Positions 567-57,454 of a DNA stretch of 64,000 bases are shown piece after piece (within the stretch, counting starts at the first letter, position 1; each line of letters starts with the position of its first letter). Under the pieces are notes generated by a model. It was given only the letters and a program-made list of their open reading frames with translations, was not told the DNA's origin and did no database searches. Both the position numbers and the translations under genes were made by a program. This DNA comes from an uncultured virus (IMG/VR IMGVR_UViG_3300021092_000027) (Duplodnaviria; Heunggongvirae; Uroviricota; Caudoviricetes), in the IMG/VR virus record IMGVR_UViG_3300021092_000027. The stretch is one strand, 5' to 3'.

Positions 567-1273
567 CATCCATCCTTGTTCTAGGTGCCTTTGCGACCCC
601 TGTATATGCAGAAGGGGATACTCCAATTACAGCGGTCGCAAATCCCCAAGCTACATCAACAGGAAGTGTGACAAATCAGGCAGTTCAGGTCTTACAAGGT
701 CCATACGTTACCAACTCATACGGTGGTGGCGTAAGTTGTCAGGGACCTACGTTCAACCTAACACCATTCCTAACAACCACTAACAGCGGTCAAACTCCTT
801 TTGAGGATTTGGCAAATTTAGATAATGATCCTACAACACCACTGGAAAGAACAGGGCAGAAAAATAACTGGGCAAAAAACTTTGGTATCTCTGGCACCAT
901 CTCTATTCCTTTGGATGGTGGTCTTCAGGCACGTTGTAAGGAAGCAGCAGAGACTTGGACTAATCGCCAGAAGGCGGAGACTGATAAGGCACGTCTTGAT
1001 TTCGAACTCGTCCGCCTCCTAAAATGCGGCGAAGCAAAGAAGGCTGGGATACATTTTCATCCCGCATCTCCTTATGCGAAGATATGTGCAGACGTTGTTG
1101 TTGTTCCCACTGGAGGAACTGCTTCTTCTTCTGCAACTTCAGTTCCTTCTGGAACGTCTTCAAAACCTTCTTCTTCAAATCCAACTGGGCAGAGAAGTCA
1201 ACCTGCAACTCATAAGGCGTCAGGTCTCGGTGGAGCCGTTTCTTTGCCTGGACGTACAACTGCTGGACAATAG
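365..1273 (+). CDS. Secreted-type hypothetical protein (ANPQATSTGSVTNQAVQVLQGPY…); true start unresolved
   Basis: Long ORF with signal-peptide-like stretch at about 545-610 and paired Cys; the only upstream in-frame ATG is at 365, inside the previous gene. Confidence 0.7.
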   Translation: MELHRHRNKCKCSKCSSTGNTIHNLSKWSSIPVLGNLFGSRNDQGHNGKSLDNHNVGYRYNKCLHTVASILVLGAFATPVYAEGDTPITAVANPQATSTGSVTNQAVQVLQGPYVTNSYGGGVSCQGPTFNLTPFLTTTNSGQTPFEDLANLDNDPTTPLERTGQKNNWAKNFGISGTISIPLDGGLQARCKEAAETWTNRQKAETDKARLDFELVRLLKCGEAKKAGIHFHPASPYAKICADVVVVPTGGTASSSATSVPSGTSSKPSSSNPTGQRSQPATHKASGLGGAVSLPGRTTAGQ

Positions 1274-1754
1274 GTTTCATTTTACCTACCATCCATTCCA
1301 CAAAAGATTTGCCAACAAGAGCCGCAGCAACAGAGGCAGTAGCAGTAGTCCCAGCAAGAATAACCTGCTCCCGAGGTGGGACTGGGACTTCCCCGATGAT
1401 TGGTACTTCAATTACAGGTACTCCTAGATTTGTTGTTGGTGGTAAAGCTGGAGATTGTTGTGTCTCAGTGGATGGTTTTATTGCATTAAGTATTGGTCTA
1501 ATATCTGGAAGTTGTCTTGGAGCTTCTTGTACTGACTCTTCTTTGTTTTGTTCTTGATTCTGCCCCTCTATCATTAGTTTCCACTGCTCTACGGTGGGAA
1601 CATCAAGAGGATAATAATATGGAAGTTCGGCAGTAGGAACTTCCACAACTGGTTTCTTTAAAGTCTTAGTTACTGGTGGATAAAAAACAGGAGGTTCCAC
1701 CTGACGAACAGTCGGAACCTCTAACTCAGATACCTTTATTTCTGGTATTTCCAT
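960..1754 (-). CDS. Pro-rich single-membrane-anchor hypothetical protein
   Basis: 264 aa ORF; Pro-rich N-half, hydrophobic VILAGTTATASVAAALVG segment, basic tail. Confidence 0.8.
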   Translation of the reverse strand: MEIPEIKVSELEVPTVRQVEPPVFYPPVTKTLKKPVVEVPTAELPYYYPLDVPTVEQWKLMIEGQNQEQNKEESVQEAPRQLPDIRPILNAIKPSTETQQSPALPPTTNLGVPVIEVPIIGEVPVPPREQVILAGTTATASVAAALVGKSFVEWMVGKMKPIVQQLYVQAKKRLHRDLTPYELQVDFSAQLDLKKKVLKTFQKELKLQKKKQFLQWEQQQRLHISSHKEMRDENVSQPSLLRRILGGGRVRNQDVPYQSPPSGD

Positions 1755-1918
1755 TACCCAATATATTCGTCTAACTTATCTAGAATTTTATTAAGATAAC
1801 GATGAGCTAACCACTTAGGATCATAACCAGATTTATTCATCCATTCATTATCAAGGTCTTTTTTTAATTTAAGAATTTCACACTTGATAATATCCTTCGT
1901 CACATATGACCTTGCCAC
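1754..1918 (-). CDS. Small hypothetical protein (54 aa, …WLAHRYLNKILDKLDEY)
   Basis: GTG start at 1918, TAA overlapping the next ATG; not in the ORF track (under 60 aa). Confidence 0.65.
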   Translation of the reverse strand: MARSYVTKDIIKCEILKLKKDLDNEWMNKSGYDPKWLAHRYLNKILDKLDEYIG

Positions 1919-1920
1919 GA

Positions 1921-2112
1921 TCAGAACAATTTAATAGGTAGAGGAAGGGATGGAATAGCCTGCTCAACTTTACCCTTTACAACTTTCTCAACTAACTTCT
2001 CTGGGTTGTTGATTAGATCTTCAACCTTTTGATAAGTAGTCCAAGCTGCATATGCCAAACCCAAACTAACTGCCAAACTTACGGCAGAAAGTGTCAACGA
2101 AACATACTTCAC
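1921..2112 (-). CDS. Small membrane protein
   Basis: 63 aa, N-terminal transmembrane helix, GGAG SD. Confidence 0.7.
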   Translation of the reverse strand: MKYVSLTLSAVSLAVSLGLAYAAWTTYQKVEDLINNPEKLVEKVVKGKVEQAIPSLPLPIKLF

Positions 2113-3458: not shown

Positions 3459-3485
3459 ATTTGAGTATTGTGTTTGTTTATAGAG

Positions 3486-3557
3486 TCGGGGCGACAGGGA
3501 TTGAACCTGTGACCTCTGGTTCCCAAAACCAGCATTCTACCGCTGAACTACGCCCCG
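3486..3557 (-). tRNA. tRNA-Pro(UGG)
   Basis: Cloverleaf CGGGGCG…CGCCCCG-A; anticodon loop TT-TGG-GA; TTCAA T-loop. Confidence 0.95.
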
Positions 3558-3645
3558 TGGCGGAAGTGGTAGGATTTGAACCCACGAACGCTTTCACGTT
3601 GCTTGTTTTCAAGACAAGTGCCTTAAACCACTCGGCCACACTTCC
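3558..3645 (-). tRNA. tRNA-Ser(UGA)
   Basis: GGAAGTG…CACTTCC-GCCA; long variable arm; anticodon loop CT-TGA-AA. Confidence 0.95.
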
Positions 3646-3661
3646 ATTTGTTGACCCCTGT

Positions 3662-3691
3662 ATTATATAGGGGGTGATGGGGGTTTGTCAA
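3662..3691 (-). promoter_or_regulatory. Sigma70-type promoter for the tRNA-Ser/Pro operon
   Basis: TTGACA-N18-TATAAT on the minus strand. Confidence 0.8.
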
Positions 3692-4052
3692 CCCCCTCAT
3701 CTCTTTTCTTTACTTGTTTTGCACTCCAGGCAATCAGTGCCATAAGAGCAAAGTAAAATAGATAATCATCTATCATTACAAGAAAAAATATAATCGCACC
3801 ACCATACTTCAAGTAATCAGGAAGTGGTAGTTTACTAGCAGCCCACCTTACTTGTTTCTCGAAGATGAAGTACAGGGGTGCTAGTGCAGTGACTACAAAC
3901 TCACTGTAAGGAACAACGAAGTAAAGAGAAAGAATTACAAAGATTGGAAAGTAATGTCTAGGTGGTATTTTTTTCAAATAAGAGACATATAAATCAATCC
4001 ACCCCTTTCGGGTACGTGGTCTGTTTTTCCAGAACTGTGTAATCTTTCTCAT
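3663..4052 (-). CDS. Multi-pass membrane hypothetical protein
   Basis: 129 aa with several hydrophobic segments. Confidence 0.7.
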   Translation of the reverse strand: MRKITQFWKNRPRTRKGWIDLYVSYLKKIPPRHYFPIFVILSLYFVVPYSEFVVTALAPLYFIFEKQVRWAASKLPLPDYLKYGGAIIFFLVMIDDYLFYFALMALIAWSAKQVKKRDEGVDKPPSPPI

Positions 4053-4114
4053 AACCTATCAGAAACTATAACGAACTTTCACTTTACCACCGAGACCGAA
4101 GACTTCGTTTCCAT

Positions 4115-4846
4115 TTAATTTTTGACAATCCAAGTCTCATGGTAGTTCATGATCCTTGGGACTTTCAACTCAAATTCTACACCATTATAAGAAGTTTGGC
4201 AAGGGCATCGAAGCTGACCGAGATAAAGTTTCGGATCCTCAGCTTCACATTTAAAAAACTGGGAGTCCTTGACGGAAGAACGAAAGTCCGTTCTCATTAA
4301 AGTCTCTGGTCTATAATGCCAAACGTTATACATTAAAGTATAACGATCTATATTACCATCCTGAACACCATGGATATATCTAGAATCAAAAGTAAAAAAC
4401 TTACCTTCTCCAGGAACTGAGTAGGTAACTTCGGTTGGTTTTCTAGGTTCAAATTGCATAATGTCTTCACCAAACTGAGCCATGTCTAAGACTATAGTTG
4501 GTGATCTGTGAAGATTTAAATACGTTACCGTAGATATTAACGGTAGAACATATCTACCATCATTCTTCCGTATGTATTCATCACAATCTACATGAAATGG
4601 TAAGAATTTATCTTCGTCATCATATGAATGGAACCACCATTCAAATCCTATTGCAGTAGGAAACTGATCAGCCAAATACATGTCGAAAGAATCCTGGACA
4701 TACTTCTCAAGGCTATTCACTGGGTCGTCATAGAGACCTACCCAGTGGTTTCCTACCAAATTATATTCTTCTATTTGTTTACACTCATGTTTTAGAAATC
4801 CACAAGTATAAGAATCTATAATTTGATCGTAAGATTTAACATTCAT
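4115..4846 (-). CDS. 2OG-Fe(II) oxygenase-like protein
   Basis: FHVDCDE (HxD), distal HGV, terminal RYTLMYN strand. Confidence 0.7.
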   Translation of the reverse strand: MNVKSYDQIIDSYTCGFLKHECKQIEEYNLVGNHWVGLYDDPVNSLEKYVQDSFDMYLADQFPTAIGFEWWFHSYDDEDKFLPFHVDCDEYIRKNDGRYVLPLISTVTYLNLHRSPTIVLDMAQFGEDIMQFEPRKPTEVTYSVPGEGKFFTFDSRYIHGVQDGNIDRYTLMYNVWHYRPETLMRTDFRSSVKDSQFFKCEAEDPKLYLGQLRCPCQTSYNGVEFELKVPRIMNYHETWIVKN

Positions 4847-5076
4847 TTGATTTGAACATCACTAAGTTTGGTTGTTCGTTTTCTCTGTTCTTCCTTTCCA
4901 ATTCCAAGCTTGTCAGTATCTTTCGGTTGACCAATTTGGATAATCTGTTTCAGGTCTCTCCCACCGATAACATCTCCCTTAACATAAGTTTGATTGTCGC
5001 AGGTGCAAATTTGGAAATCATAAGCATGTCTAGATGTAAGCGTGGTGTTACATCTCTTGCAACGTACTGTTAACAT
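4843..5076 (-). CDS. Zn-ribbon hypothetical protein
   Basis: CxxC…CxC motif. Confidence 0.7.
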   Translation of the reverse strand: MLTVRCKRCNTTLTSRHAYDFQICTCDNQTYVKGDVIGGRDLKQIIQIGQPKDTDKLGIGKEEQRKRTTKLSDVQIK

Positions 5077-5545
5077 CGTTCTTCTCTATATCTATAAACA
5101 TAAAAATCATATCGTCGTCTGAAAAATTGTAACCTTCATGAACGTAATCCATAACGTCATATATTTCTGGTTTACCAGGTTGCCAGTATTTCTTTTCACC
5201 TTGCCAAACCATATAACAATCTGTAGGATGAACTAGTAAAGGAATTTGTATCCTCCTATACTTCTTACCATCATAAACATTAGGATCTCTGTGAGGACCA
5301 AGCTCAGTTCCAGGAAGGAAACATGAAATGGTTGCAAATAAAATCTCATCAGAATCAAGTATGTCCACTATTTCGGGTTCAGTGACTACACTTTCCCGAA
5401 CTCCACTCCAAGCCTTTCCATGCCCTTTCAACCAACAAAAATAGATATCTTGATTTGAATATCCAACTGAGGTTGGGGCTTTACGGAGAGGAAAGTCTTG
5501 TTCTATTGCCCAATTGTATAGTTTATCAATATCAGATCGTTTCAT
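5048..5545 (-). CDS. Aspartyl/asparaginyl beta-hydroxylase-like 2OG-Fe(II) oxygenase
   Basis: PGTELGPHRD, RIQIPL, W-x-x-G, HEGYN. Confidence 0.8.
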   Translation of the reverse strand: MKRSDIDKLYNWAIEQDFPLRKAPTSVGYSNQDIYFCWLKGHGKAWSGVRESVVTEPEIVDILDSDEILFATISCFLPGTELGPHRDPNVYDGKKYRRIQIPLLVHPTDCYMVWQGEKKYWQPGKPEIYDVMDYVHEGYNFSDDDMIFMFIDIEKNDVNSTLQEM

Positions 5546-5558
5546 ATCTAACCTCCGA

Positions 5559-5630
5559 TGGGCGATACTGGATTCGAACCAGTGACCCTCTCCTTGTAAG
5601 GGAGACGCGCTACCGCTGTGCCAATCGCCC
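5559..5630 (-). tRNA. tRNA-Val(UAC)
   Basis: GGGCGAT…ATCGCCC-A; anticodon loop CT-TAC-AA. Confidence 0.95.
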
Positions 5631-5706
5631 TGGCGACTCAGGTTGGGGTCGAACCAACGACCGACTGCTTAGAAGGCAGTTGCTCTATCCACTGAGCTAC
5701 TGAGTC
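5631..5706 (-). tRNA. tRNA-Arg(UCU)
   Basis: GACTCAG…CTGAGTC-GCCA; anticodon loop CT-TCT-AA. Confidence 0.95.
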
Positions 5707-9101: not shown

Positions 9102-11405
9102 TCAGATCTTACAGGACTCACAATCATCATCAGCGGTTTCAATCTCAGCGATAAGTGCTTCTAACTGAGATCTCTTGGAATCTATGTCTTCATCAGCATC
9201 TTTTTTAGCGTCGTAGGTGTTCTGATAGTAGCTGGTCTTCCAGCCGTACTTATATGTATTCAAAAGGTCTTGTGCCATTACCGAAGTAGGAACTTCATTA
9301 TCTGGATAATTCTCTGGATTATAGGACCAGTTTCCAGAAATCGCTTGATCGAAGAACTTCTGCATAATAGCGACAATATTAATATACCCAGTATTGCTAG
9401 GCATATCCCAAAGAAGCGTGTAATTGTTCTTAAGTGTTTGGTACTGAGGAACAATCTGCTTAAGCGGACCCTTCTTCGACTTCTTAATGGACAGGTAGTC
9501 TCTAGGAGGTTCAATTCCGTTTGTTGCATTTGACACCACGGAACTGCTTTCCGATGGCATCTGTGCGGACAGTGTGCTGTGTCGCAGTCCGTGTTCCATG
9601 ATAGATGCCCTAAGAGATTCCCAGTCATAGAAATAAGCAGGTGCTACTAATTCGTCAACGTCCTTCTTGTATGTATCGATAGGAAGAATACCATCGGCAT
9701 ACTTCGTGCGATTAAATGCTTCACATGCACCTTTCTCTTTAGCAATCTGATTAGATGCTTTGAGAAGATTATATTGGAATGCTTCAGTGAGTTTATGTAC
9801 CTCAGTGCGAGCTACAATATCATCATACTTAATTTTGTGCTTGGCTAGGTAATGTGCCAGACCGATGTATCCAACACCCAAGGAGCGCCTTGCAAGGGTG
9901 CTACGGCGTGCTGCTGCAACAGGATACTCCTGATAGTCAATCAACTCTTCCAATCCTCTTACAGTAAGATCACAGAGTTCTTCCATCTCACTGAGGTGAT
10001 TGATCTTTCCAACGTTGATGGCAGACAAGATACAAAGGGCGATCTCACCATCAGCATCATCGATATGATTGATAGGATCTGTAGGAAGAGTAATCTCCTG
10101 ACACAGGTTGGACATGTTCACCTTATCCTTAAAGGAAGAGTGAGAGTTGCAGTGGTCAATATTCATAATGTAGATGCGACCAGTCTCTGCTCTCTCCTTT
10201 AAAAGATCCAGAAAGAGTTCTTGAGCTCTGACAGTCTTTCTTGGAAGAGACTGATCTCGTTCATAAGACTCATATAAGTCGTCAAATCGATCAGTGCCAA
10301 AAGCATCATACAGACCAGGAACGTCGTGTGGAGAGAAGAGGGAAATCTCTCTATCTTGGATGAATCTCGCATAGAAAAGTTTGGAGATTTGAATGCTGTA
10401 ATCTAGCTTACGGACCCTATTATCTTCGGTTCCTTTATTGTTCTTGAGTACAATAATATCTTCTATTTCTTTGTGCCAGATTGGGAAGTGGACTGTTGCG
10501 CTTCCACCTCGGATGCCATTTTGAGTGCAGCATCGGACAGTTGCTTCAAACTTTTTGAGAAACGGTACAACGCCAGTGTGCTGGACTTCACCACCTCTAA
10601 TTTTGCTGTTGATACCACGGATGCGACCTGCGTTGATACCGATGCCCGCCCTTTGTGCAACATATCTGCCAATAGCCATATCGCTACTAAAGATACTATC
10701 GAGGGTGTCATCAACATCAACAAGAACACAGCTAGCGAATTGTCTAAGTGGCGTTCGCACTCCTGCCATGATGGGGGTTGGAATGTTGATTTTGTGCTTG
10801 CTGATTGCGCTGTAGTATCGACGGACATAATCGATCCTGGTTTCCTTAGGATAATTTTGGAACAGGGTAAGAGCGATCATCATGTACATAAACTGAGGAG
10901 TTTCGTAGTGGACTCCCGAGCTTCTATCCTGGACAAGATATTTATCCACTACTTGTCGCAATCCAGCATATGTAAACAGAAAGTCACGATCGTGATCGAT
11001 GAATCTATTCAGAACATCCCATTCTTCAGCAGAATATTTTGCAAGAATAGTCTTGTCATATACTCCTCTTTCAACACAAAGTTGTACCTGATCTACAAGA
11101 CCAGGAAATTCTTCAGGGTGTCCAAAGACAGACTTCCTCAAACCAAAAAGAAGTAGCCTTGAAGCTACGTATTGGTAGTTTGGGTTGTCTAGAGTAATCA
11201 AATCCGAAGCAGATCGAATCAAGATCTCTTGGATTTGACTTGTCTTGATGCCATCAAAAAATTGCAGACCGCTATTGATTTCTACTTGAGATGGGGAGAC
11301 TCCTGCAAGACCTTCACATGCCAGGTCCACCATCTTATGAACCTTGTCAAGATTAATGGGCTCAGTTCTACCATCTCTCTTAACAACTTTGATTCCGTTA
11401 CTCAT
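9102..11405 (-). CDS. nrdA: Ribonucleotide reductase class Ia alpha subunit
   Basis: ATP cone VVKRDG, QFASCVL, SNLCQEI, KTSYY, C-terminal CESCKI. Confidence 0.98.
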   Translation of the reverse strand: MSNGIKVVKRDGRTEPINLDKVHKMVDLACEGLAGVSPSQVEINSGLQFFDGIKTSQIQEILIRSASDLITLDNPNYQYVASRLLLFGLRKSVFGHPEEFPGLVDQVQLCVERGVYDKTILAKYSAEEWDVLNRFIDHDRDFLFTYAGLRQVVDKYLVQDRSSGVHYETPQFMYMMIALTLFQNYPKETRIDYVRRYYSAISKHKINIPTPIMAGVRTPLRQFASCVLVDVDDTLDSIFSSDMAIGRYVAQRAGIGINAGRIRGINSKIRGGEVQHTGVVPFLKKFEATVRCCTQNGIRGGSATVHFPIWHKEIEDIIVLKNNKGTEDNRVRKLDYSIQISKLFYARFIQDREISLFSPHDVPGLYDAFGTDRFDDLYESYERDQSLPRKTVRAQELFLDLLKERAETGRIYIMNIDHCNSHSSFKDKVNMSNLCQEITLPTDPINHIDDADGEIALCILSAINVGKINHLSEMEELCDLTVRGLEELIDYQEYPVAAARRSTLARRSLGVGYIGLAHYLAKHKIKYDDIVARTEVHKLTEAFQYNLLKASNQIAKEKGACEAFNRTKYADGILPIDTYKKDVDELVAPAYFYDWESLRASIMEHGLRHSTLSAQMPSESSSVVSNATNGIEPPRDYLSIKKSKKGPLKQIVPQYQTLKNNYTLLWDMPSNTGYINIVAIMQKFFDQAISGNWSYNPENYPDNEVPTSVMAQDLLNTYKYGWKTSYYQNTYDAKKDADEDIDSKRSQLEALIAEIETADDDCESCKI

Positions 11406-12397
11406 ACTTTCCAATCTGTAAGTTTTAACTTTGCTTCTAGCCCTTGATAGATGTTAGATTCTATCACATCTTTGGCATTAATGCCAGCTTTAACCATGTC
11501 ATTAATATCCTTTTCGTGAATACCCTTTGGCCAAATAACCACTGGATATCCAGAATCTATTGCTTTCTCAATTCGATCTGTAATTTGTTTGTTTCTCGGT
11601 TCATTATCAAAGATGTATACAAGATTATAGTTGAATCCACTGAGATCTACATCAGCACCACACATGGCGATGCTGTTTTCTAAGAATAGAGAATCGAATG
11701 GTCCTTCAACAACGTATACGGTTTCATCATTCTTTACTCGATCAAGACCAAAAACCTTTGGGGCATCTTCATCTAGCATGATGGTGATATAACGCATTCT
11801 TGCGTCTGGTTCTAGAGATCTTCCCTGGTATCCGAATAGATTTCCTTCCTTGTCTTTGAGTGGAATGATGATGCGTTCATCGTCTTTGTTGGTATCCGAG
11901 AATGTTTCCTTTTGTTTATTCGTCCACTCTTTGAATTTTGGACAGAAATAAAACTCCTTTAATTTTTCTTCTGGAATACCTCTACCAAGCAAATATGCCC
12001 GAGCTGGGTGAAAGTTATTTAGCTCAGATATTGGTGTAAGGTCTATTACTTTTTTTGATTTGAAGACAGGCGTATCAAAGGTCGGAAGGGTTGGTTTGGG
12101 AATAGGAGTTCCCTTACCAGTATGACCTTCACTATAGTGTTCCATCAGATACTCATCATAAAGATGAGGCACCTGCTCCTTTATGAAGTTAGAAAAGGAT
12201 CTACCTACGCCACAGTTATGGCACTTGTAAAAATAATCAGCCCTCTTCTTAACAAGATAACCCCTAGCTTTGTTTCGGTGCTTTTGAGAGTCACCGCAGT
12301 AGGGGCATCGGAAGTTATATACTCCAGGTTTTTTCTTGGAGAACTTATCTAAAAAGGAGGACGAAAGACTTATGTACTTTTCGTCAATAAAACTCAT
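11402..12397 (-). CDS. gp61: DNA primase (T4 gp61-like)
   Basis: Zn finger CPYCGDS…CHNC; TOPRIM EGPFDS, DNEPRN, KDIND. Confidence 0.95.
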   Translation of the reverse strand: MSFIDEKYISLSSSFLDKFSKKKPGVYNFRCPYCGDSQKHRNKARGYLVKKRADYFYKCHNCGVGRSFSNFIKEQVPHLYDEYLMEHYSEGHTGKGTPIPKPTLPTFDTPVFKSKKVIDLTPISELNNFHPARAYLLGRGIPEEKLKEFYFCPKFKEWTNKQKETFSDTNKDDERIIIPLKDKEGNLFGYQGRSLEPDARMRYITIMLDEDAPKVFGLDRVKNDETVYVVEGPFDSLFLENSIAMCGADVDLSGFNYNLVYIFDNEPRNKQITDRIEKAIDSGYPVVIWPKGIHEKDINDMVKAGINAKDVIESNIYQGLEAKLKLTDWKV

Positions 12398-12783
12398 CTA
12401 GGCAACTTTGTCTCTGCCTGAATATTAGCACTGTCTGGGGAAGGAGTCAAGATGGGTTTAAGAATTCTAATACCAGCGTCGGAAACCATAAACGTGAGAA
12501 CAGCGAAAGCTCCAGCGATGCTCCACAGTTTCTTTTCCAATTCTCTGATACGTCCATCAACAAGTTTGATGTCACGCTCACATCCTTTTTTGATTTCGTC
12601 AGTCTTTTCGTGAAGATCTTTATGTATATGTTCTATCTTCTCAAATAAGATGTCATCTGCCTTTTCTTGCTTATCAAGTTTCTCTTGATGAACAGCGAGA
12701 AGCTGCCCCATCTTAATAGAGTTATCTTGAAGTGAAGCTACTATTCTTTCTAGTCTGTCAATAATGGCAGAGTTAGCATCCAT
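12394..12783 (-). CDS. Coiled-coil protein with C-terminal hydrophobic segment
   Basis: 129 aa; LLAVHQEKL; ELEKKLW followed by a TM-like stretch. Confidence 0.75.
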   Translation of the reverse strand: MDANSAIIDRLERIVASLQDNSIKMGQLLAVHQEKLDKQEKADDILFEKIEHIHKDLHEKTDEIKKGCERDIKLVDGRIRELEKKLWSIAGAFAVLTFMVSDAGIRILKPILTPSPDSANIQAETKLPR

Positions 12784-15563: not shown

Positions 15564-16262
15564 TTATATAGCATCTGGATCCTCTTCTAGAAGAGCTATG
15601 CCATGTTTTGTTAACTGTTCAATACTATAATCGAGAATGACAATAATCCTGTCATGACTTCCCTCATGCTTAACCCAGTGCTTGTCATGATCTTTGAATG
15701 CAAAAACCTCACCGACATTCCATACTCTTCTTCTTCCTCTGACTTTAATCCATGCGCCAGGATCTGTAACGACAGGAAAGTGAATACGGAGTGAATCGAT
15801 GTCTCCACAGTGAGGATTAATAATTGTTCCTGGAGAAAGACGAGAAATAGTTGCAGACTTTAAAAGTTTATTATCAATATCTTCCTGTAAGTATTTAAAG
15901 GTAAGAGGACAAGTTTTAATAAAACTTTGTCTTATTAAAGGAAGAATCTCTTGACATCTTTCTGTTGTGGTATTGAATAGCTTTGTGAAAGTAACCATCT
16001 CACTGAGCTCAAAGTCCTCATCAGTTGCAGTGGTTCCCACACAGTTAATTGGGAATGGAATAACTCTCCAGTCACCATCCCACAACTTAACTCTACCAAG
16101 GTTACGATCATCAACCCATTTATCCAAGCGCCATTCATCAAGTATTCGTTGATTGTCTTCAACGAAACTTAAAACTTCTGGGATAATGTCTTGATAATAT
16201 GTTTGAAGATTACGAAAAGAGGATAGCGTTTGAATGCTATCCTCATGCCAAATTTTTCTCAT
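15564..16262 (-). CDS. Aspartyl/asparaginyl beta-hydroxylase-like oxygenase
   Basis: PGTIINPHCG, LRIHFP, HWVKH, RIIVILD. Confidence 0.8.
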   Translation of the reverse strand: MRKIWHEDSIQTLSSFRNLQTYYQDIIPEVLSFVEDNQRILDEWRLDKWVDDRNLGRVKLWDGDWRVIPFPINCVGTTATDEDFELSEMVTFTKLFNTTTERCQEILPLIRQSFIKTCPLTFKYLQEDIDNKLLKSATISRLSPGTIINPHCGDIDSLRIHFPVVTDPGAWIKVRGRRRVWNVGEVFAFKDHDKHWVKHEGSHDRIIVILDYSIEQLTKHGIALLEEDPDAI

Positions 16263-16265
16263 ATA

Positions 16266-16445
16266 TTATCTTTGCTCTGGGCAACCCTTAGTTCCATGTA
16301 CGGGACATTCTACACCTTCTTTGGTGTGATTGCAAGCCGCTTCTACTTTTTGTTTAGGTGCCTTTGGCATCTTTTTGTCGCCTTGCTTCTGTCCCTCTGG
16401 GTCTTCGATCTCAGGCATGATCTCAACGGGACCGACTACTTTTTT
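16266..16445 (-). CDS. Cys/His-containing ORF, possibly a -1 frameshift extension of 16436..17854
   Basis: The -1 frame is open from A AAA AAG to TAA at 16266; CNHT…CPVHG…CP. Confidence 0.55.
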   Translation of the reverse strand, partial: KKVVGPVEIMPEIEDPEGQKQGDKKMPKAPKQKVEAACNHTKEGVECPVHGTKGCPEQR

Positions 16446-17854
16446 TCAGCGATCTCCTTACGCCAGTCAGAGAAGGTATGCTCTTTCTTAACACAGTTAG
16501 GAACTTCCTTACCACCTTTTTTCTTGGTGCCTTTTGCTTCATAACCATCCCAGCAGGTAGAAGCACCGACGTTAGCACGAGCAGCTTTCATGCCCTCTTC
16601 AACCTCTACCTCTTCCTTCTTGGTTTTGTTAGCGTGCTTCCAAGCAGTAGCGTAAGCGATGGACTTTTCCTTCTCAGTCAGGTTTCCATCTTTTGAATAT
16701 GACTTTTTGATGTGCTTCACCGTGCGCTCTGCTTTATCACCAGGAGGAGCAACCTCATCAAGTTCTACTTCTTCTTTCTTAGCAGTCTTTGCTGCTTTCT
16801 TGAAGGCATCCTTTGCAGGATAATCCTCTTCACCTGGTCTAGCTGGACGCTCGCCACGCTCTCTCTTAGCGTGGATATTTGCATAGAGACCTTTCTTCTC
16901 TTCAATCTCTCCAACCTCTTCCTTCATCTTCTTACCCATCGCCTTGGAAACAGCGGCGCGACGGTTCTTCAAGTACGAATCAGATGAATCAGAATCTCCA
17001 TCATTATCTACATCGTCATCTTCTTTACCAACTGGATCAAGCTTCTTTGCTTTCTTTGCTTCGAGGACTTCTTGATTCTTCTCATCGTTGATGACATGCT
17101 CATGCATTTCGCTAACGAGAATATTAAGTGAAGCAACAGAGACATTATGCTCAAGACCATGCTCAAACATAACATCATAGTGAGTGATGTTACCTTGCTC
17201 ATCGAGTGTATGCATCTCCTTGATGCAGTTACCCTCTCCCCACTCAGAGTGCTCAACTTTAGTAGCGCAAGAGTGCTTAGGTTTCTTAACCTTTGGCTTA
17301 CCCTGTGTTCCAGCTGGTTCTGCCATCTTCATGCCAGGGGCATCACCGCCTCCGACTCCAGATGCACCAAGACCTTTAACGTCTTTGTTTGCCATCTTGG
17401 CAGAGTTATCATAACGCCAGGTCTCATCCACACGATCCAGGGGACCTTGATATTTTACTTTGCCAGAAAGTGCGGCGACTCCAGCTAATACGTACTCGTT
17501 GTTTTCCATCTTATCTTTTTTGGGGTCTGGGGGAATGACTTGTTTTACTTTAATTTTAGAGAAGGGTTGCTTCTTTTCTCCAGGAGTCAAAGACTGGAGA
17601 TACTCTCGGTAAGCATCAGTGCCGATTTCAAATGCTTCTTTGATATCGGTAATCCATGTCCTAAAAGTTGTTTCCTCAGTAGTCAAACAGAGAACATAAT
17701 TTGGTCCACGGCGGATGATCTTTCCAACCTTTCCACTTTCCGTAAGAATCCACTCACCTACTTTATAAATTTCATTACGATAAAACTTGTTACGGTTGAT
17801 GTTTGTTTCCGCAACCTGTGCTTTCTTATGGAACTCGCTAAAACTATTCATCAA
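16436..17854 (-). CDS. Lys/Glu-rich modular late protein, putative head-internal protein
   Basis: 472 aa; TATAAATA promoter at 17876-17883; many (I/L/V)xE and EE sites. Confidence 0.75.
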   Translation of the reverse strand: MMNSFSEFHKKAQVAETNINRNKFYRNEIYKVGEWILTESGKVGKIIRRGPNYVLCLTTEETTFRTWITDIKEAFEIGTDAYREYLQSLTPGEKKQPFSKIKVKQVIPPDPKKDKMENNEYVLAGVAALSGKVKYQGPLDRVDETWRYDNSAKMANKDVKGLGASGVGGGDAPGMKMAEPAGTQGKPKVKKPKHSCATKVEHSEWGEGNCIKEMHTLDEQGNITHYDVMFEHGLEHNVSVASLNILVSEMHEHVINDEKNQEVLEAKKAKKLDPVGKEDDDVDNDGDSDSSDSYLKNRRAAVSKAMGKKMKEEVGEIEEKKGLYANIHAKRERGERPARPGEEDYPAKDAFKKAAKTAKKEEVELDEVAPPGDKAERTVKHIKKSYSKDGNLTEKEKSIAYATAWKHANKTKKEEVEVEEGMKAARANVGASTCWDGYEAKGTKKKGGKEVPNCVKKEHTFSDWRKEIAEKK

Positions 17855-17885: not shown

Positions 17886-18440
17886 TCATGACATATTAGA
17901 CCTAATCTCTTCCATCAATTTCCGCGCATCTGAATCACTCAAAGCCTTTGGAATACCAGATCTAAACGTTGCCAGATCTCCAGCAAGAGCTGCTCTCCGC
18001 ATCTTGGTTCCAGATATTGCAAATGTATCTCCATCAGCATCTCTTTCACCAGAAGAGATCACTTCAAGTTTCCTAAAAAAGAAATCCTTACCATTATACT
18101 TTTTAATCCACTGCATAGCAGGAACTCGATCAGATCCAACTACCATAACAGCATCATCATATCCTTGTGTCTGCAGCTCTTGCAAGATTGATACTGGATC
18201 TTTGGGTCCACTGCGAAGATTGTTTGTAGCCCAAGGAAACATCTTCTTAGCGTAAAATAATTTACGATCTGGAGGTAATGGATTTTGCCCCTTACTATCT
18301 ACACTCTGAGACAAATAAATGTACCAGTCACATCCTCCAGCTTTTGATCTGACTGCTCTAAAGTTTTCTTCGTGTCCTATAGTTGGTGGTTGAAATCTAC
18401 CAAAGGTAAAGTAGACGCATTTATAATCTACTATTTCCAT
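17886..18440 (-). CDS. Cytidyltransferase-like (HxGH) nucleotidyltransferase
   Basis: FGRFQPPTIGH, VVGSDR, ISGTKMR. Confidence 0.85.
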   Translation of the reverse strand: MEIVDYKCVYFTFGRFQPPTIGHEENFRAVRSKAGGCDWYIYLSQSVDSKGQNPLPPDRKLFYAKKMFPWATNNLRSGPKDPVSILQELQTQGYDDAVMVVGSDRVPAMQWIKKYNGKDFFFRKLEVISSGERDADGDTFAISGTKMRRAALAGDLATFRSGIPKALSDSDARKLMEEIRSNMS

Positions 18441-19664
18441 TTACTTCCAGTCCTTCTCTACCGTGAAATTGTTATAAGAAAATTCCAAACGATTCACCAA
18501 CTTAATCATGTCCCCATCAAGGTGAAGTACATATCCTTCAGGATTAGTTACCTGATAACCATTCGGAGTCTTAACAAAATATCTCACTGCCCCTAAACCT
18601 TCTACTCGGTTGAGCTCATCAATAACAATTTGTTTGTTATCTTGTATCTTTTTATATAGCGCAAGCATAGCGCGAAACTCATTCTCATGATCCTCAAGAT
18701 ATTTCAAACCAGCATACATTAAGGTTCTCTTTTCTGTTTTTGCTTTATCGGATTTGAGTCCATCTATAACCTTGATCATTTTAGTATGATAGAACTCACC
18801 CAAAGCCTTTAAAGTTTTTCTTGGATCAGATATAGATCTCTGCTTCTTCACTTCATCATTAAAAAATTGCTTGACGTAGGAAGCAACATGATATTTTTTA
18901 TCACCAGTTGTTCCCATGTTTGCGACAAGAGCATTCAAAAAATCTTTGGTGATGGTACACATTCTATTAATGATCGTCACATTTTGTTCGAATGTTCTCA
19001 ATTGAGATTGAGGAATTGCAGTGTCAACTAAAGGAGTATCATTAAAGAACTGAACAACTTCTGGTAGATCATTAGTCTGCGGAACATTTGCTCCAGCTCT
19101 TGCTTGCAAAGCAGATGGGTCCATGTACTGACCATCATAATGAGTATGAAATACAATACCCACCTTAGCTTGCATGATCTGTCTACCCAAAGGGTGATCA
19201 TAAGGAACAGCATATGTGAGAGTGTTCATCCTAAATGTGACATACCTCTCTTTATCAATTACCTCTACCTTCAATTTGTCTTCTGTGAAAAGAACATCAC
19301 CCTGAACAATCCCTTTGATATTCATTCTGGGAAAATACTTGAAGCATGTCTTTAAGGTTTGCCCAAGACCACCAGATCCATACAACATATCAATTTCTTG
19401 TTCGTTGTATGCAATCTTTGGAGTTCCTACATTAAATGCAGATTTGTTTGCCACAAAAAAATCATTAGATTCTGGATCGTATCCACAGACTATAGATGGA
19501 GATCCATCCCATTTTGTCTGCATATAACCAGATCCTTTTTTCTCTCCCATCATTTTGATGAGTTCGCGCATGAACCTAACTGCGGCATGACATCCTTCTA
19601 CGCCATAGTTAAGCATTTCATCTTCAAGGTGTTCTAGGTGAGTAAGGTGAACTACGTTTGCCAT
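18441..19664 (-). CDS. ATP-dependent ligase-like nucleotidyltransferase of unknown substrate
   Basis: KWDG, QGDVLF, EGYV and IKLV motifs in ligase order. Confidence 0.65.
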   Translation of the reverse strand: MANVVHLTHLEHLEDEMLNYGVEGCHAAVRFMRELIKMMGEKKGSGYMQTKWDGSPSIVCGYDPESNDFFVANKSAFNVGTPKIAYNEQEIDMLYGSGGLGQTLKTCFKYFPRMNIKGIVQGDVLFTEDKLKVEVIDKERYVTFRMNTLTYAVPYDHPLGRQIMQAKVGIVFHTHYDGQYMDPSALQARAGANVPQTNDLPEVVQFFNDTPLVDTAIPQSQLRTFEQNVTIINRMCTITKDFLNALVANMGTTGDKKYHVASYVKQFFNDEVKKQRSISDPRKTLKALGEFYHTKMIKVIDGLKSDKAKTEKRTLMYAGLKYLEDHENEFRAMLALYKKIQDNKQIVIDELNRVEGLGAVRYFVKTPNGYQVTNPEGYVLHLDGDMIKLVNRLEFSYNNFTVEKDWK

Positions 19665-20854
19665 CAGATCATCTCCCACTCCGAACGACCAGCTTTAGGA
19701 TAGATAAAGATTCTAGTCCCAGGAACTCCAAAGTCAGAGCGATCTCCTTTACGTGCCATGAACACTGGTCTTGCCTCACCACTAAGAAGTTCGTTCATTT
19801 CATTTTGACTATCAGTGTGGATACTTCCTTCAACTTTCAAAACCTTTTGATCGTTACCAGAAAGGCTAGTTGGTTGACCCTGAATAATTAACTGAACTGA
19901 GTCGGAATTGTATGACCCTCTTCTATACAAAGGACCATAAACTGCTTCCACCTTCAAAGTATTATCATCTATCTCTCTTCCAATATTTGTTCCAGGAGGA
20001 GCACCATTTGGATATCTAGTCTTTAGATCATTAACAAAGTCTAAAACTTCTTGGTTGTTCCTATATCCAGATAAACCACCCCACTGTTGGAAATCTTTTG
20101 GTTTGCTTCCTTCCTTCAACGAAGTAAATCCAGTGATTCTCAAGTCAGTATTATTCTTGTAGTATAGGAATACAATATCTGCTTTTGGATCAGACGAAGC
20201 TCCAGGTGCTCCCATGGCACCAACACAATTTGGAATTATGAGACTTCCAACCTTAAGATCAAAGAGCATAGACTCCCCGTTCTTTCTTCTCTTTTCTCTC
20301 TCAGCACCAACCAACTCATTAAAGTTATCTAACCAATCAGCTTCAACTGTTTTACCTGGTTTTAATAGAGTGAGGTTTTCTGCTGCAGCAATAGATTCAA
20401 GGTGTCCCCATTTCATATTTCTAGAATTCATGGAGACTTCTCTTCCACCAAAATCTGTTGTCTTCGACAGAATTCCCATAGAATGTAATTGATAGTCTTC
20501 AGAGATAACAAATATTTTTGTACCGAATCCAGGATCAGTTTTCGATCTAAAATAATTATTGAATCGATTTATAAACTTCCGTACATCTTTACCGTAATTT
20601 GCTGGGTAAATGCATTTGTAATCTTTAATGTCACACCCCAACAGTCTTTCTGCTTTTGTACCTTTTGCTAGGGTACGAGGACTTTTATAGGCGAGACCAA
20701 TAAGCTTTACACTATCTCCTGCAGGAATGTTTTTGCCGTAGACCTTGACTTCTTTTTCCAAAACAAATCCAGCTCCATCAACAACGTACTCATGAAATCT
20801 GCGTAGATTCTGGAGTTGCCTCTTTTTAAACTGAGACCAAGAAAGTGCTGCCAT
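19664..20854 (-). CDS. Hypothetical protein with possible PD-(D/E)xK nuclease-like C-terminal domain
   Basis: PKADIVF…SLK…FQQWGG. Confidence 0.5.
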   Translation of the reverse strand: MAALSWSQFKKRQLQNLRRFHEYVVDGAGFVLEKEVKVYGKNIPAGDSVKLIGLAYKSPRTLAKGTKAERLLGCDIKDYKCIYPANYGKDVRKFINRFNNYFRSKTDPGFGTKIFVISEDYQLHSMGILSKTTDFGGREVSMNSRNMKWGHLESIAAAENLTLLKPGKTVEADWLDNFNELVGAEREKRRKNGESMLFDLKVGSLIIPNCVGAMGAPGASSDPKADIVFLYYKNNTDLRITGFTSLKEGSKPKDFQQWGGLSGYRNNQEVLDFVNDLKTRYPNGAPPGTNIGREIDDNTLKVEAVYGPLYRRGSYNSDSVQLIIQGQPTSLSGNDQKVLKVEGSIHTDSQNEMNELLSGEARPVFMARKGDRSDFGVPGTRIFIYPKAGRSEWEMI

Positions 20855-56845: not shown

Positions 56846-57454
56846 TCATCGGCAGTTCCATCTCCTCAGTGCTTTATTGATTCTGCTATCTGGATCTCTA
56901 GCAGTTTTAGATGAAGTTAGCTTTGTCTTCATTCCTTTCATACGGCGACAGAATGATGCTCTACGCTTAGCTCTTTTTCCTTTGGGTTTCTTTTCAGTAA
57001 CTGCGGTCTGTAGTTTAGAACCTGGGTTCTCTTTACGATATGCATTAACTGCTTTCTGACTCAACCCATCCGTTTTATCCTTACGATTGACTGACTGCCA
57101 ATCCTCCTTTTGCATCTTCTTAACATTCTTCTGTGCTTCAGGGTGCTCTCTAGAGTATACTTTCTTATCGTTTGTAGATTTTTCTACCGCACATCCACAG
57201 TGCTCTCTAAATTCTTTGAATGTTTTCATTTTCCTTTCTTCTTTAGTTAGGAATACTGAAGAATCTGTAGGATCAGATTCCCAAAACGTAACAACTCTAC
57301 TTCCTGGATAAATCCTATCTACAATTCTTTGAGCTTGAGATCTTTGCATTAATGCAGTTTTAGATCTAAAAACATTTACAGAAAAAGGTGACCCTCTCCA
57401 CATCAAGGAGATGGTATAGTATCTACCATAAGAAGTGGGAAGTCTTTCCGCCAT
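56846..57454 (-). CDS. Basic late protein, putative head-internal protein
   Basis: Internal MKTFKEF; C-terminal RRASFCRRM…DPDSRINKALRRWNC. Confidence 0.75.
   Translation of the reverse strand: MAERLPTSYGRYYTISLMWRGSPFSVNVFRSKTALMQRSQAQRIVDRIYPGSRVVTFWESDPTDSSVFLTKEERKMKTFKEFREHCGCAVEKSTNDKKVYSREHPEAQKNVKKMQKEDWQSVNRKDKTDGLSQKAVNAYRKENPGSKLQTAVTEKKPKGKRAKRRASFCRRMKGMKTKLTSSKTARDPDSRINKALRRWNCR

What the first reader, a model, noticed from the sequence alone, without database searches (positions are those of the whole stretch)
16266..16460. dnaX-style programmed -1 frameshift at the end of a putative head-internal protein
Seen: the 472-aa ORF ends …AAGGAG ATC GCT GAA AAA AAG TAG. The heptamer A AAA AAG sits directly before the stop, with an SD-like AAGGAG about 8 nt upstream and a possible GGTC…GACC hairpin downstream. 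The -1 frame is open for about 57 more codons (VVGPVEIMPE…CNHT…CPVHG…CPEQR) and exactly fills the gap to the next gene. Established: A AAA AAG with an upstream SD is the classic bacterial -1 signal (dnaX, IS3 family). Inference: two isoforms, the longer with a Cys/His metal-binding tail. An independent start at the internal ATG (MPE…) is the alternative.
Basis: partly seen in the sequence, partly recalled or inferred. Interest (0 to 1): 0.72.

Follow-up and report, generated by a model that had tools for sequence, protein, structure and literature searches.

The report
Conserved -1 frameshift site in cyanophage
A T4-like cyanophage gene ends in a slippery sequence that very probably makes some ribosomes slip back one base and add a small cysteine-rich tail to the protein, and relatives keep the same signal although public records annotate it as two genes.

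Summary
On the minus strand the 472-aa ORF (16436..17854) ends GAA AAA AAG TAG. AAGGAG lies 8 nt upstream, and the -1 frame runs 57 codons to 16266.

The heptamer alone is not unusual (25 in the window, 28.5 expected). Comparison with relatives makes the case:
- Of 111 distinct cassettes, 108 keep GAAAAAAAG, a 0-frame stop within two codons, a linker to the downstream ATG of 17, 20, 23 or 26 nt (always 2 mod 3), and no -1 stop.
- An SD-like motif lies 7-15 nt upstream.
- A hairpin starts about 6-8 nt downstream.
- A syntenic sister clade (27 loci) carries the Cys/His motif in frame.
- Two picocyanobacterial genomes have only tRNA-Lys(UUU).

I read this as a dnaX/IS911-style programmed -1 ribosomal frameshift giving a 472-aa form and a 529-aa form (confidence 0.85). 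It is not annotated in the four isolate records I read, and my literature searches found no description.

The "head-internal protein" label is only a lead. The N-terminus resembles the N-termini of the T4 internal proteins.

No expression data could be obtained. Independent initiation at the ATG and transcriptional slippage remain minor rivals.

The parts
16436..17854 (-). Upstream (0-frame) ORF. It is 472 aa from TTG, and the likely real start is the ATG at 17851 (471 aa). It is a modular Lys/Glu-rich protein of unknown function, PHROG 22379, annotated 'possible cytitidyltransferase' (T4-GC 534) in P-HM1 and P-HM2.
17807..17851 (-). N-terminal MNSFSEFHKKAQVAE. It resembles the N-termini of T4 internal proteins, including a Glu-ended V-A-E at residue 15. 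This is a lead only.
16454..16459 (-). Shine-Dalgarno-like AAGGAG, 8 nt upstream of the heptamer. Proposed upstream stimulator.
   Evidence: Across relatives, the anti-SD duplex is -6 kcal/mol or stronger in 94% of 54 distinct upstream segments, against 17% of 4590 background windows.
16439..16445 (-). Slippery heptamer A AAA AAG in 0-frame phase (codons GAA AAA AAG at 16447..16439).
   Evidence: It is invariant in 108 of 111 distinct cassettes.
16436..16438 (-). 0-frame stop TAG directly after the heptamer.
16388..16435 (-). Predicted irregular hairpin. The main stem runs from 16432 to 16391, starting 6 nt after the heptamer, and encloses the internal ATG. Proposed downstream stimulator.
   Evidence: (L004 is identical to the window here)
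16266..16439 (-). The -1 frame extension: 57 codons plus TAA. The first 7 codons (VVGPVEI) lie upstream of any start codon.
16416..16418 (-). Internal ATG. It is the start of the 50-aa ORF that gene callers report (PHROG 32143).
16281..16334 (-). Cys-X8-Cys-Pro-X-His-Gly-X3-Cys motif (CNHTKEGVECPVHGTKGC), a putative metal-binding knuckle.
   Evidence: C36, N37, G42, C45, P46, H48, G49 and C53 are invariant in 20 sequences. No Pfam match.

Best explanation
This is a programmed -1 ribosomal frameshift site of the dnaX/IS911 type in a T4-like cyanomyovirus.

Most ribosomes translating the 472-aa modular protein terminate at the TAG right after GAA AAA AAG. A fraction slip back one base on A AAA AAG. 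The slip is helped by an upstream Shine-Dalgarno-like AAGGAG pairing with 16S rRNA, and by a hairpin that begins about 6 nt downstream. Those ribosomes continue for 57 codons and make a 529-aa isoform (528 aa from the ATG) ending in a Cys3His motif.

Shown here: the signal's anatomy, its conservation, the frame relationship, the in-frame sister clade, and the single tRNA-Lys(UUU) in two picocyanobacteria.

Inferred: that slipping occurs, its efficiency, and the roles of the SD-like motif and the hairpin.

More speculative: the protein carries an N-terminus like the T4 internal proteins, so the tail, which has no such N-terminus of its own, would reach the capsid only as a fusion.
For: 1. Invariance. 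GAAAAAAAG has zero variation at all 9 positions in 40 distinct 20-nt-linker sequences, while neighbouring third codon positions carry 1.2-1.9 bits. Over all loci, 108 of 111 distinct cassettes are consistent.

2. Frame.
- Linker lengths from the heptamer to the ATG are 17 (1), 20 (67), 23 (34) and 26 (6) nt, all 2 mod 3. None has a -1 stop.
The last, L433, has an 18-nt linker, no stop, and reads straight through in frame.

3. Coding signature upstream of the ATG. Entropy by -1 codon position over the 15 nt before the ATG is 1.02, 0.33 and 1.35 bits. In 48 of the 57 loci listed (window included) the -1 frame is closed by TGA just before the heptamer; the other 9 read CGA or AGA there. The window's linker holds no ATG, GTG or TTG in that frame.

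4. Natural fusions.
- 27 loci (21 distinct tails) encode proteins of about 310 aa with ...SDWRSE...CNNSK.GTKCPVHGT..C in one frame.
- These are homologous to the window protein (E 9e-37) and share its downstream neighbour (E 6e-10).
- The motif also lies inside many long modular proteins.

5. Stimulators.
- SD-like motif 7-15 nt upstream: duplex of -6 kcal/mol or stronger in 94% of 54 segments against 17% of 4590 background windows.
- The 75 nt after the heptamer fold with mean z -2.82 (67 distinct sequences), against -0.43 for 134 control windows.
- Pairing probability jumps from 0.31 to 0.76 at position +7.
- A named helix is paired in 78.6% of cells, against 30-58% when slid, and 3 of 12 pairs change on both sides.
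- 26 cassettes with unrelated tails and different hairpin sequences give mean z -2.83, against -0.96 for their controls.

6. Decoding. Prochlorococcus SS51 (37 tRNAs) and Synechococcus RCC307 (42 tRNA genes called by ARAGORN) each have one tRNA-Lys(UUU) and no Lys(CUU). By recall, this is the condition that makes A AAA AAG shifty in E. coli.

7. Stand-alone relatives of the tail module carry their own MKSFNQF or MRSFKDF N-termini. The window's tail does not.
Against: - No expression, ribosome or protein data exist for this site.
- The ATG and the following Pro codon are invariant. Gene callers and PHROG 32143 treat the tail as a separate small protein. An independent start could therefore coexist with frameshifting or replace it.
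- RNAalifold found no consensus structure over 46 sequences, because the 3' arm moves between classes.
- The window's own 79-nt fold is unremarkable (z -0.91).
- The hairpin's 5' arm is the linker itself. Part of the period-3 pattern could mirror wobble variation of the coding 3' arm rather than translation of the linker.
- The sequences are related, so the counts and p-values are not independent events.
- L433 keeps GAAAAAAAG although it reads through in frame.
- The host of this particular phage is unknown.
- The helix tested was derived from one member (L007).
Confidence: 0.85

Rival explanations
1. There are two separate genes. The 50-aa Cys/His protein is made only from its own ATG (16418), perhaps by termination-reinitiation. 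In this reading the hairpin hides the ATG until a ribosome finishing the upstream gene melts it.
For: - ATG-CC is invariant in all cassettes.
- The ATG lies inside the hairpin.
- P-HM1 and P-HM2 annotate a separate CDS.
- Library proteins mostly start at that Met.
- Fusion and fission of interacting partners is common, which would explain the in-frame clade.
Against: - It does not explain the invariance of three synonymous sites in GAA AAA AAG.
- It does not explain why four linker length classes are all 2 mod 3 with no -1 stop.
- It does not explain why the only linker that is 0 mod 3 also lacks the stop.
- The SD-like motif lies about 36-45 nt from the ATG, too far to serve it.
- Next to the ATG there is only GAGATC or GAGGTN, ending 2 nt before it.
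Confidence: 0.08
2. The same fusion is made by transcriptional slippage. RNA polymerase adds one A in the run of seven, so a fraction of mRNAs carry A8 and read through in frame.
For: The site is a homopolymer run of 7 A. Such realignment is known for longer A/T runs in bacteria and IS elements (recalled).
Against: - The run is short and never lengthens: A7 followed by G in 108 of 108 consistent cassettes.
- Its codon phase is fixed.
- It is flanked by an SD-like motif and a hairpin at the spacings that act on ribosomes.
- None of these is needed for polymerase slippage.
Confidence: 0.05
3. It is an artefact or decay: a sequencing error in a homopolymer, or a recently broken gene.
For: Homopolymer errors are common. 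One library protein (P0016) is an error-ridden in-frame read of a relative.
Against: The same A7 and frame break occur in 108 distinct sequences from independent assemblies and in four isolate genomes (P-HM1, P-HM2, MED4-213, Syn1). Both reading frames are conserved.
Confidence: 0.01

Closest known systems
E. coli dnaX tau/gamma -1 frameshift signal (recalled from the literature, not fetched)
   Same: - A AAA AAG heptamer.
- Upstream SD-like stimulator about 10 nt away (8 nt here).
- Downstream stem-loop after a spacer of about 6 nt.
- A host with a single tRNA-Lys(UUU).
   Different: - In dnaX the -1 frame stops almost at once, so the shifted product is the shorter one. Here the 0 frame stops at once and the shifted product is longer.
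- The genes are unrelated.
- The hairpin here is long, irregular and not positionally conserved at its 3' arm.
IS911 / IS3-family OrfA-OrfAB frameshift (recalled)
   Same: A AAA AAG near the end of the first ORF. A -1 shift fuses it to a downstream ORF that also has its own possible start. SD-like motif upstream and structure downstream.
   Different: This is not a transposase or a mobile element. It is a single conserved locus per phage genome.
Phage C-terminal extensions by -1 frameshift: lambda G/GT tail chaperone, T7 10A/10B (recalled)
   Same: A phage protein made in two forms at a set ratio, the minor form carrying an extra C-terminal module.
   Different: The locus lies between cytidylyltransferase-like and TlmH-like genes in the replication block, not between tail tube and tape measure and not in the capsid gene. 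The proteins are unrelated.
T4 internal proteins IPI, IPII, IPIII
   Same: N-termini read from the T4 record are MKTFKEF... and MKTYQEFIAE. The window protein begins MNSFSEF...VAE, and a second window ORF begins MKTFKEF. The neighbouring T4-GC190 protein was found in S-SM1 virions (PMC3037559, section 26 read).
   Different: There is no similarity beyond about 7 residues. No virion evidence exists for this protein family: the supplement search found only sequence listings. That these N-termini act as a capsid-targeting signal cleaved by the prohead protease is recalled and was not tested here.

Membership tests
dnaX/IS911-type -1 programmed ribosomal frameshift signal | X XXY YYZ heptamer in the 0-frame phase | tested here: met
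   GAA AAA AAG at 16447..16439. Invariant in 108 of 111 distinct cassettes.
dnaX/IS911-type -1 programmed ribosomal frameshift signal | A -1 ORF that is open from the heptamer and conserved as coding | tested here: met
   57 codons in the window. No -1 stop in any of 108 linkers, lengths all 2 mod 3, codon-position entropy 1.02/0.33/1.35.
dnaX/IS911-type -1 programmed ribosomal frameshift signal | SD-like stimulator roughly 7-14 nt upstream | tested here: met
   AAGGAG 8 nt upstream. Across relatives, 94% against 17% background at -6 kcal/mol or stronger, and a distance of 7-12 nt in 52 of 54 segments.
dnaX/IS911-type -1 programmed ribosomal frameshift signal | Stable structure 5-9 nt downstream | tested here: inconclusive
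   Across relatives: mean z -2.82 against -0.43, stem onset at +6 or +7, covariation in 3 of 12 pairs. But the window alone gives z -0.91, and RNAalifold finds no consensus.
dnaX/IS911-type -1 programmed ribosomal frameshift signal | Host decodes AAG with tRNA-Lys(UUU) only | tested here: met
   Each of two picocyanobacterial genomes has one Lys(UUU) and no Lys(CUU). The host of this phage itself is unknown. The window's own tRNAs are Pro, Ser, Val and Arg.
dnaX/IS911-type -1 programmed ribosomal frameshift signal | A trans-frame protein is actually made | not testable with these tools
   No RNA run holds the stretch. No proteome data were accessible.
Phage tail assembly chaperone (G/GT-type) frameshift | Located between tail tube and tape-measure genes | tested here: not met
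   The neighbours are cytidylyltransferase-like, DUF6267, TlmH-like hydroxylase, primase and RNR genes.
Retroviral-type CCHC zinc knuckle (Pfam zf-CCHC) | C-X2-C-X4-H-X4-C spacing and a Pfam match | tested here: not met
   The spacing is C-X8-C-X2-H-X4-C. No Pfam hit at E up to 1. The AlphaFold model is poor, pLDDT 64.5.
PHROG 32143 (tail) and PHROG 22379 (upstream protein) | Profile match | tested here: met
   E 1.2e-18 and 6.3e-177. Both families have unknown function.
T4-type encapsidated internal proteins | N-terminal capsid-targeting sequence ending at a prohead-protease site | tested here: inconclusive
   MNSFSEFHKKAQVAE compared with T4 MKTFKEF and MKTYQEFIAE. This is a short motif only.
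T4-type encapsidated internal proteins | Presence in purified virions | not tested
   The P-HM1, P-HM2 and Syn1 records do not flag it as structural. The Sullivan 2010 supplement search showed only sequences.

The most novel reading that the evidence does not exclude
The frameshift cassette is a fixed joint inside a hypervariable, module-shuffling gene for encapsidated internal proteins of cyanomyoviruses. The cassette consists of the SD-like motif, A AAA AAG, the stop, and a hairpin that codes ..[IV]E[IV]MP...

The upstream part carries an N-terminus like those of the T4 internal proteins. The frameshift lets the phage load interchangeable C-terminal cargo modules into the head at a set sub-stoichiometric ratio, for delivery into the host. 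The cargo seen includes the Cys3His knuckle, DUF6321 and other Lys-rich modules.

Support:
- The same cassette joins at least four unrelated upstream C-termini to at least four unrelated tails at one locus per genome.
- Stand-alone versions of the tail module carry their own N-terminus of that kind.
Probability: 0.3. Interest if true: 0.8.

Novelty: new member of a known kind. Interest (0 to 1): 0.66.

Why it matters
T4-like cyanophages are among the most abundant viruses in the sea, and their genomes are heavily used as references. This site shows that a conserved gene pair in them is probably one recoded gene.

- The small ORF is annotated separately in P-HM1, P-HM2 and Syn1, and not at all in MED4-213.
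- The signal is a clean natural example of the three-part dnaX-type signal outside enterobacteria, in hosts that make little use of Shine-Dalgarno initiation (recalled).
- It comes with more than 100 natural sequence variants and an in-frame sister clade, which together act as a ready-made mutational series.

If the capsid-targeting reading holds, the site also gives a handle on how cyanophages package and dose proteins that travel with the DNA.

Tried and rejected
- The search for homologous proteins with the 50-aa tail, 'longer' lengths: no candidate.
- RNAalifold on 46 sequences: no consensus structure.
- The look-up of sequencing runs: no RNA holder listed. 20 DNA runs labelled lake water metagenome hold the stretch.
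- AlphaFold2 of the 57-aa tail with 20 sequences: pLDDT 64.5, pTM 0.28, no usable fold. No fold search was run.
- Pfam and NCBIfam: nothing for either protein.
- ESM Atlas: only virus-only clusters automatically named 'possible cytitidyltransferase'.
- tblastn of the in-frame tail against isolate phages: no match.
- The window's own assembly is not held. The nearest record, G001, has no psbA. I reached host genomes through the P-HM2 psbA instead.
- Literature: searches found no paper on a frameshift at this locus (only listings and abstract starts were seen). One search ('cytitidyltransferase') returned nothing.
- Sullivan et al. 2010 (PMC3037559) has 0 occurrences of 'frameshift' or 'slippage' in its main text.
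- PMC2938197 mentions cyanophages only for dioxygenase clusters (passages read).
- PMC3012670 does not print the capsid-targeting sequence (passages read), so I read the N-termini from the T4 record.
- P0016, an apparent in-frame protein, is a read with further frame errors. I did not count it.

Full report
**What is there.** The genes in this part of the window run on the minus strand. The ORF 16436..17854 (472 aa from TTG; the second codon is ATG) ends ...CGT AAG GAG ATC GCT GAA AAA AAG TAG. Shifted back by one base at A AAA AAG, the reading frame continues with VVGPVEIMPEIEDPEGQKQGDKKMPKAPKQKVEAACNHTKEGVECPVHGTKGCPEQR and stops at 16266-16268, three bases before the next gene. Gene finders see only a 50-aa ORF from the ATG at 16418.

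**Context.** The window is a T4-like cyanomyovirus.
- Its ORFs match DNA polymerase, UvsX, helicase, MazG, primase, RNR, and further on the head and tail genes.
- The nearest isolates at this locus are Prochlorococcus phages P-HM2, P-HM1 and MED4-213, at about 74% DNA identity.
- There the upstream gene is annotated 'possible cytitidyltransferase' (T4-GC 534). The small ORF is a separate hypothetical protein in P-HM1 and P-HM2 (T4-GC 535) and is not annotated in MED4-213. No record marks a joined or slipped CDS.
- The upstream protein matches PHROG 22379 and the tail matches PHROG 32143, both of unknown function. Pfam and NCBIfam give nothing.

**Is it more than chance?** The heptamer alone is not: there are 25 copies in the window against 28.5 expected. 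The comparative picture is.
- A protein-guided scan of IMG/VR gave 54 loci, and a profile scan found 186 relatives, of which 80 were kept.
- 135 of the 136 loci then in hand have GAAAAAAAG followed by ATGCC. These make 83 distinct sequences, all with a linker of 17, 20 or 23 nt and no -1 stop.
Of the 80 loci fetched, 77 were in register (20, 23 or 26 nt) and 2 were unrelated chance hits.
- The remaining locus, L433, has an 18-nt linker, no stop, and reads E-K-K-K-P-T-I-E-V-M-P in a single frame. It is the exception that fits the rule.
- Pooled, 108 of 111 distinct cassettes are consistent, with 35 different linker peptides.
- The nine bases GAAAAAAAG never vary, although they include three synonymous sites and nearby third positions vary freely.

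**Is the linker translated?**
- In 48 of the 57 loci listed (window included) the -1 frame is closed by TGA just before the heptamer; the other 9 read CGA or AGA there. The window's linker contains no start codon in that frame.
- Even so, the 15 nt before the ATG vary with a coding-like period: 1.02, 0.33 and 1.35 bits at codon positions 1, 2 and 3.
- Caveat: the linker is also the 5' arm of a hairpin whose 3' arm is coding. Some of this periodicity could be inherited from base pairing.

**Natural fusions.**
- One distant hit (L056) lacked the heptamer. It is a 315-aa ORF whose C-terminus carries the Cys/His motif in frame after ...ERSDWRSE.
- Searching with that tail found 27 loci (21 distinct tails) of the same kind, each a single ORF of about 294-317 codons.
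- L056 is homologous to the window protein (E 9e-37), and its downstream neighbour is homologous to the T4-GC 424 gene of P-HM2 (E 6e-10). It is therefore the same locus.
- This clade lacks the ...GPVEIMPELDDPDG... segment that encodes the hairpin.
- A profile search of 1.84 billion representatives found the motif both in small proteins that begin at the Met and inside many long Lys/Glu-rich modular proteins.

**Stimulatory elements.**
- *Upstream.* Every one of 54 distinct sequences has an anti-SD duplex of -4 kcal/mol or stronger, and 94% reach -6 or stronger. Background windows of the same genes reach these levels in 34% and 17% of cases. The core lies 7-15 nt from the heptamer and 8 nt in the window. 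This motif is about 36-45 nt from the ATG, so it cannot be that codon's ribosome-binding site.
- *Downstream, folding energy.* The 75 nt after the heptamer fold far better than shuffles, with mean z -2.82 and 78% below -2 (n = 67 distinct). For 134 control windows in the same genes the mean z is -0.43 and 8% fall below -2.
- *Downstream, stem position.* The first strongly paired base is +7, and the hairpin encloses the ATG.
- *Downstream, covariation.* A helix taken from one member is paired in 78.6% of cells against 30-58% for slid controls. Three of 12 pairs show changes on both sides, for example GUCCC/GGGAC, GUCCU/AGGAC, GCCCA/UGGGC and GACCA/UGGUC.
- *Other classes.* Cassettes with unrelated tails have different hairpin sequences at the same place, with mean z -2.83 against -0.96.
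- *Against.* RNAalifold finds no consensus over all 46 aligned sequences. The window's own fold scores only z -0.91. All these sequences are related.

**Decoding.** Through the psbA gene of P-HM2 I reached complete picocyanobacterial genomes. Prochlorococcus marinus SS51 and Synechococcus RCC307 each have a single tRNA-Lys(UUU) and no tRNA-Lys(CUU). By recall, the same situation explains the high shiftiness of A AAA AAG in E. coli. The window's own tRNAs are Pro, Ser, Val and Arg. The actual host of this phage is not known.

**Breadth.**
- The cassette also occurs in Syn1, where ...KKMKEETEKK* is followed by VKKPVVEVMPEIDD....
- It occurs in classes with tails that lack the Cys/His motif. Some of these are more than 200 aa long and contain DUF6321 or other modules.
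- There is one cassette per genome in the genomes checked. It is therefore a fixed joint in a variable, modular gene rather than a wandering element.

**What the protein is.** This remains unknown.
- N-termini read from the T4 record are MKTYQEFIAE (IPII, IPIII) and MKTFKEF (IPI).
- The window protein begins MNSFSEFHKKAQVAE. The only other ORF in the window with this motif begins MKTFKEF. That ORF lies between the terminase genes and shares PHROG families with the 472-aa protein.
- Stand-alone relatives of the tail module begin MKSFNQF and MRSFKDF.
- The neighbouring T4-GC190 protein was detected in S-SM1 virions (PMC3037559, section 26).
- That such N-termini target proteins to the prohead and are cut after a Glu is recalled knowledge. 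No virion evidence exists for this family.

**Verdict.** The best explanation is a programmed -1 ribosomal frameshift producing a short form and a C-terminally extended form (0.85).
- Rivals: a separately initiated small gene with no frameshifting (0.08), transcriptional slippage (0.05), and artefact or decay (0.01).
- The mechanism is of a known kind. The signal works like dnaX, and the product logic is like IS911 OrfAB or lambda G/GT.
- This site appears undescribed. It is not annotated in the four isolate records I read. Searches found nothing on it. The comparative-genomics paper that defined these gene clusters does not mention frameshifting.
- The library does not cover most subscription journals, so prior description elsewhere cannot be excluded.

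Noticed in passing
window 56846..57454 (-), inner ATG at 57229: An ORF between the small and large terminase genes has an inner Met that begins MKTFKEFREHCGC. Its first 7 residues are identical to those of T4 IPI. It shares PHROGs 30733, 11180, 10346 and 28131 with the 472-aa protein, so it is a paralogous modular protein. Which ATG is the true start is unclear.
   Followed up: partly
window 11402..12397 and 12394..12783 (-): Two ORFs overlapping by 4 nt match consecutive parts of one PHROG (phrog_451: positions 20-127 and 130-459 of 461). The primase-associated protein is therefore split here but fused in other phages.
   Followed up: no
window 17886..18440 and 18441..19679 (-): Abutting ORFs match positions 416-601 and 19-341 of phrog_455 (764 positions). 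The DUF6267 and cytidylyltransferase-like genes are one protein in some phages.
   Followed up: no
L356 (Syn1) 792..1070 and 1045..1950: In Syn1 the homologue of the upstream gene is annotated as two ORFs overlapping by 26 nt (Syn1_162 and Syn1_163). Whether this is a second recoding site, a real split or an error was not examined.
   Followed up: no
L433 347..505; L355 1929..2162: Small stand-alone ORFs carry the ..[IV]EVMP.. module in frame, behind their own MRSFKDF or MKSFNQF N-termini. L433 still contains GAAAAAAAG, and a -1 slip there would truncate the protein after 4 codons.
   Followed up: partly
window 3485..5706 (-): tRNA genes in two adjacent pairs about 1.9 kb apart: Pro(UGG) and Ser(UGA) at 3485..3645, Val(UAC) and Arg(UCU) at 5559..5706.
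   Followed up: no
window 16100..17000: Twenty public DNA runs labelled lake water metagenome hold 98-99% of the sampled words of this stretch. The closest isolate relatives are marine Prochlorococcus phages at only about 74% identity.
   Followed up: no
window 15564..16262 (-): The gene directly downstream is a TlmH-like Asp/Arg beta-hydroxylase-fold protein (PF05118, E 1.9e-20), with weak similarity to lipid hydroxylases LpxO and OlsC. Its substrate is unknown.
   Followed up: no
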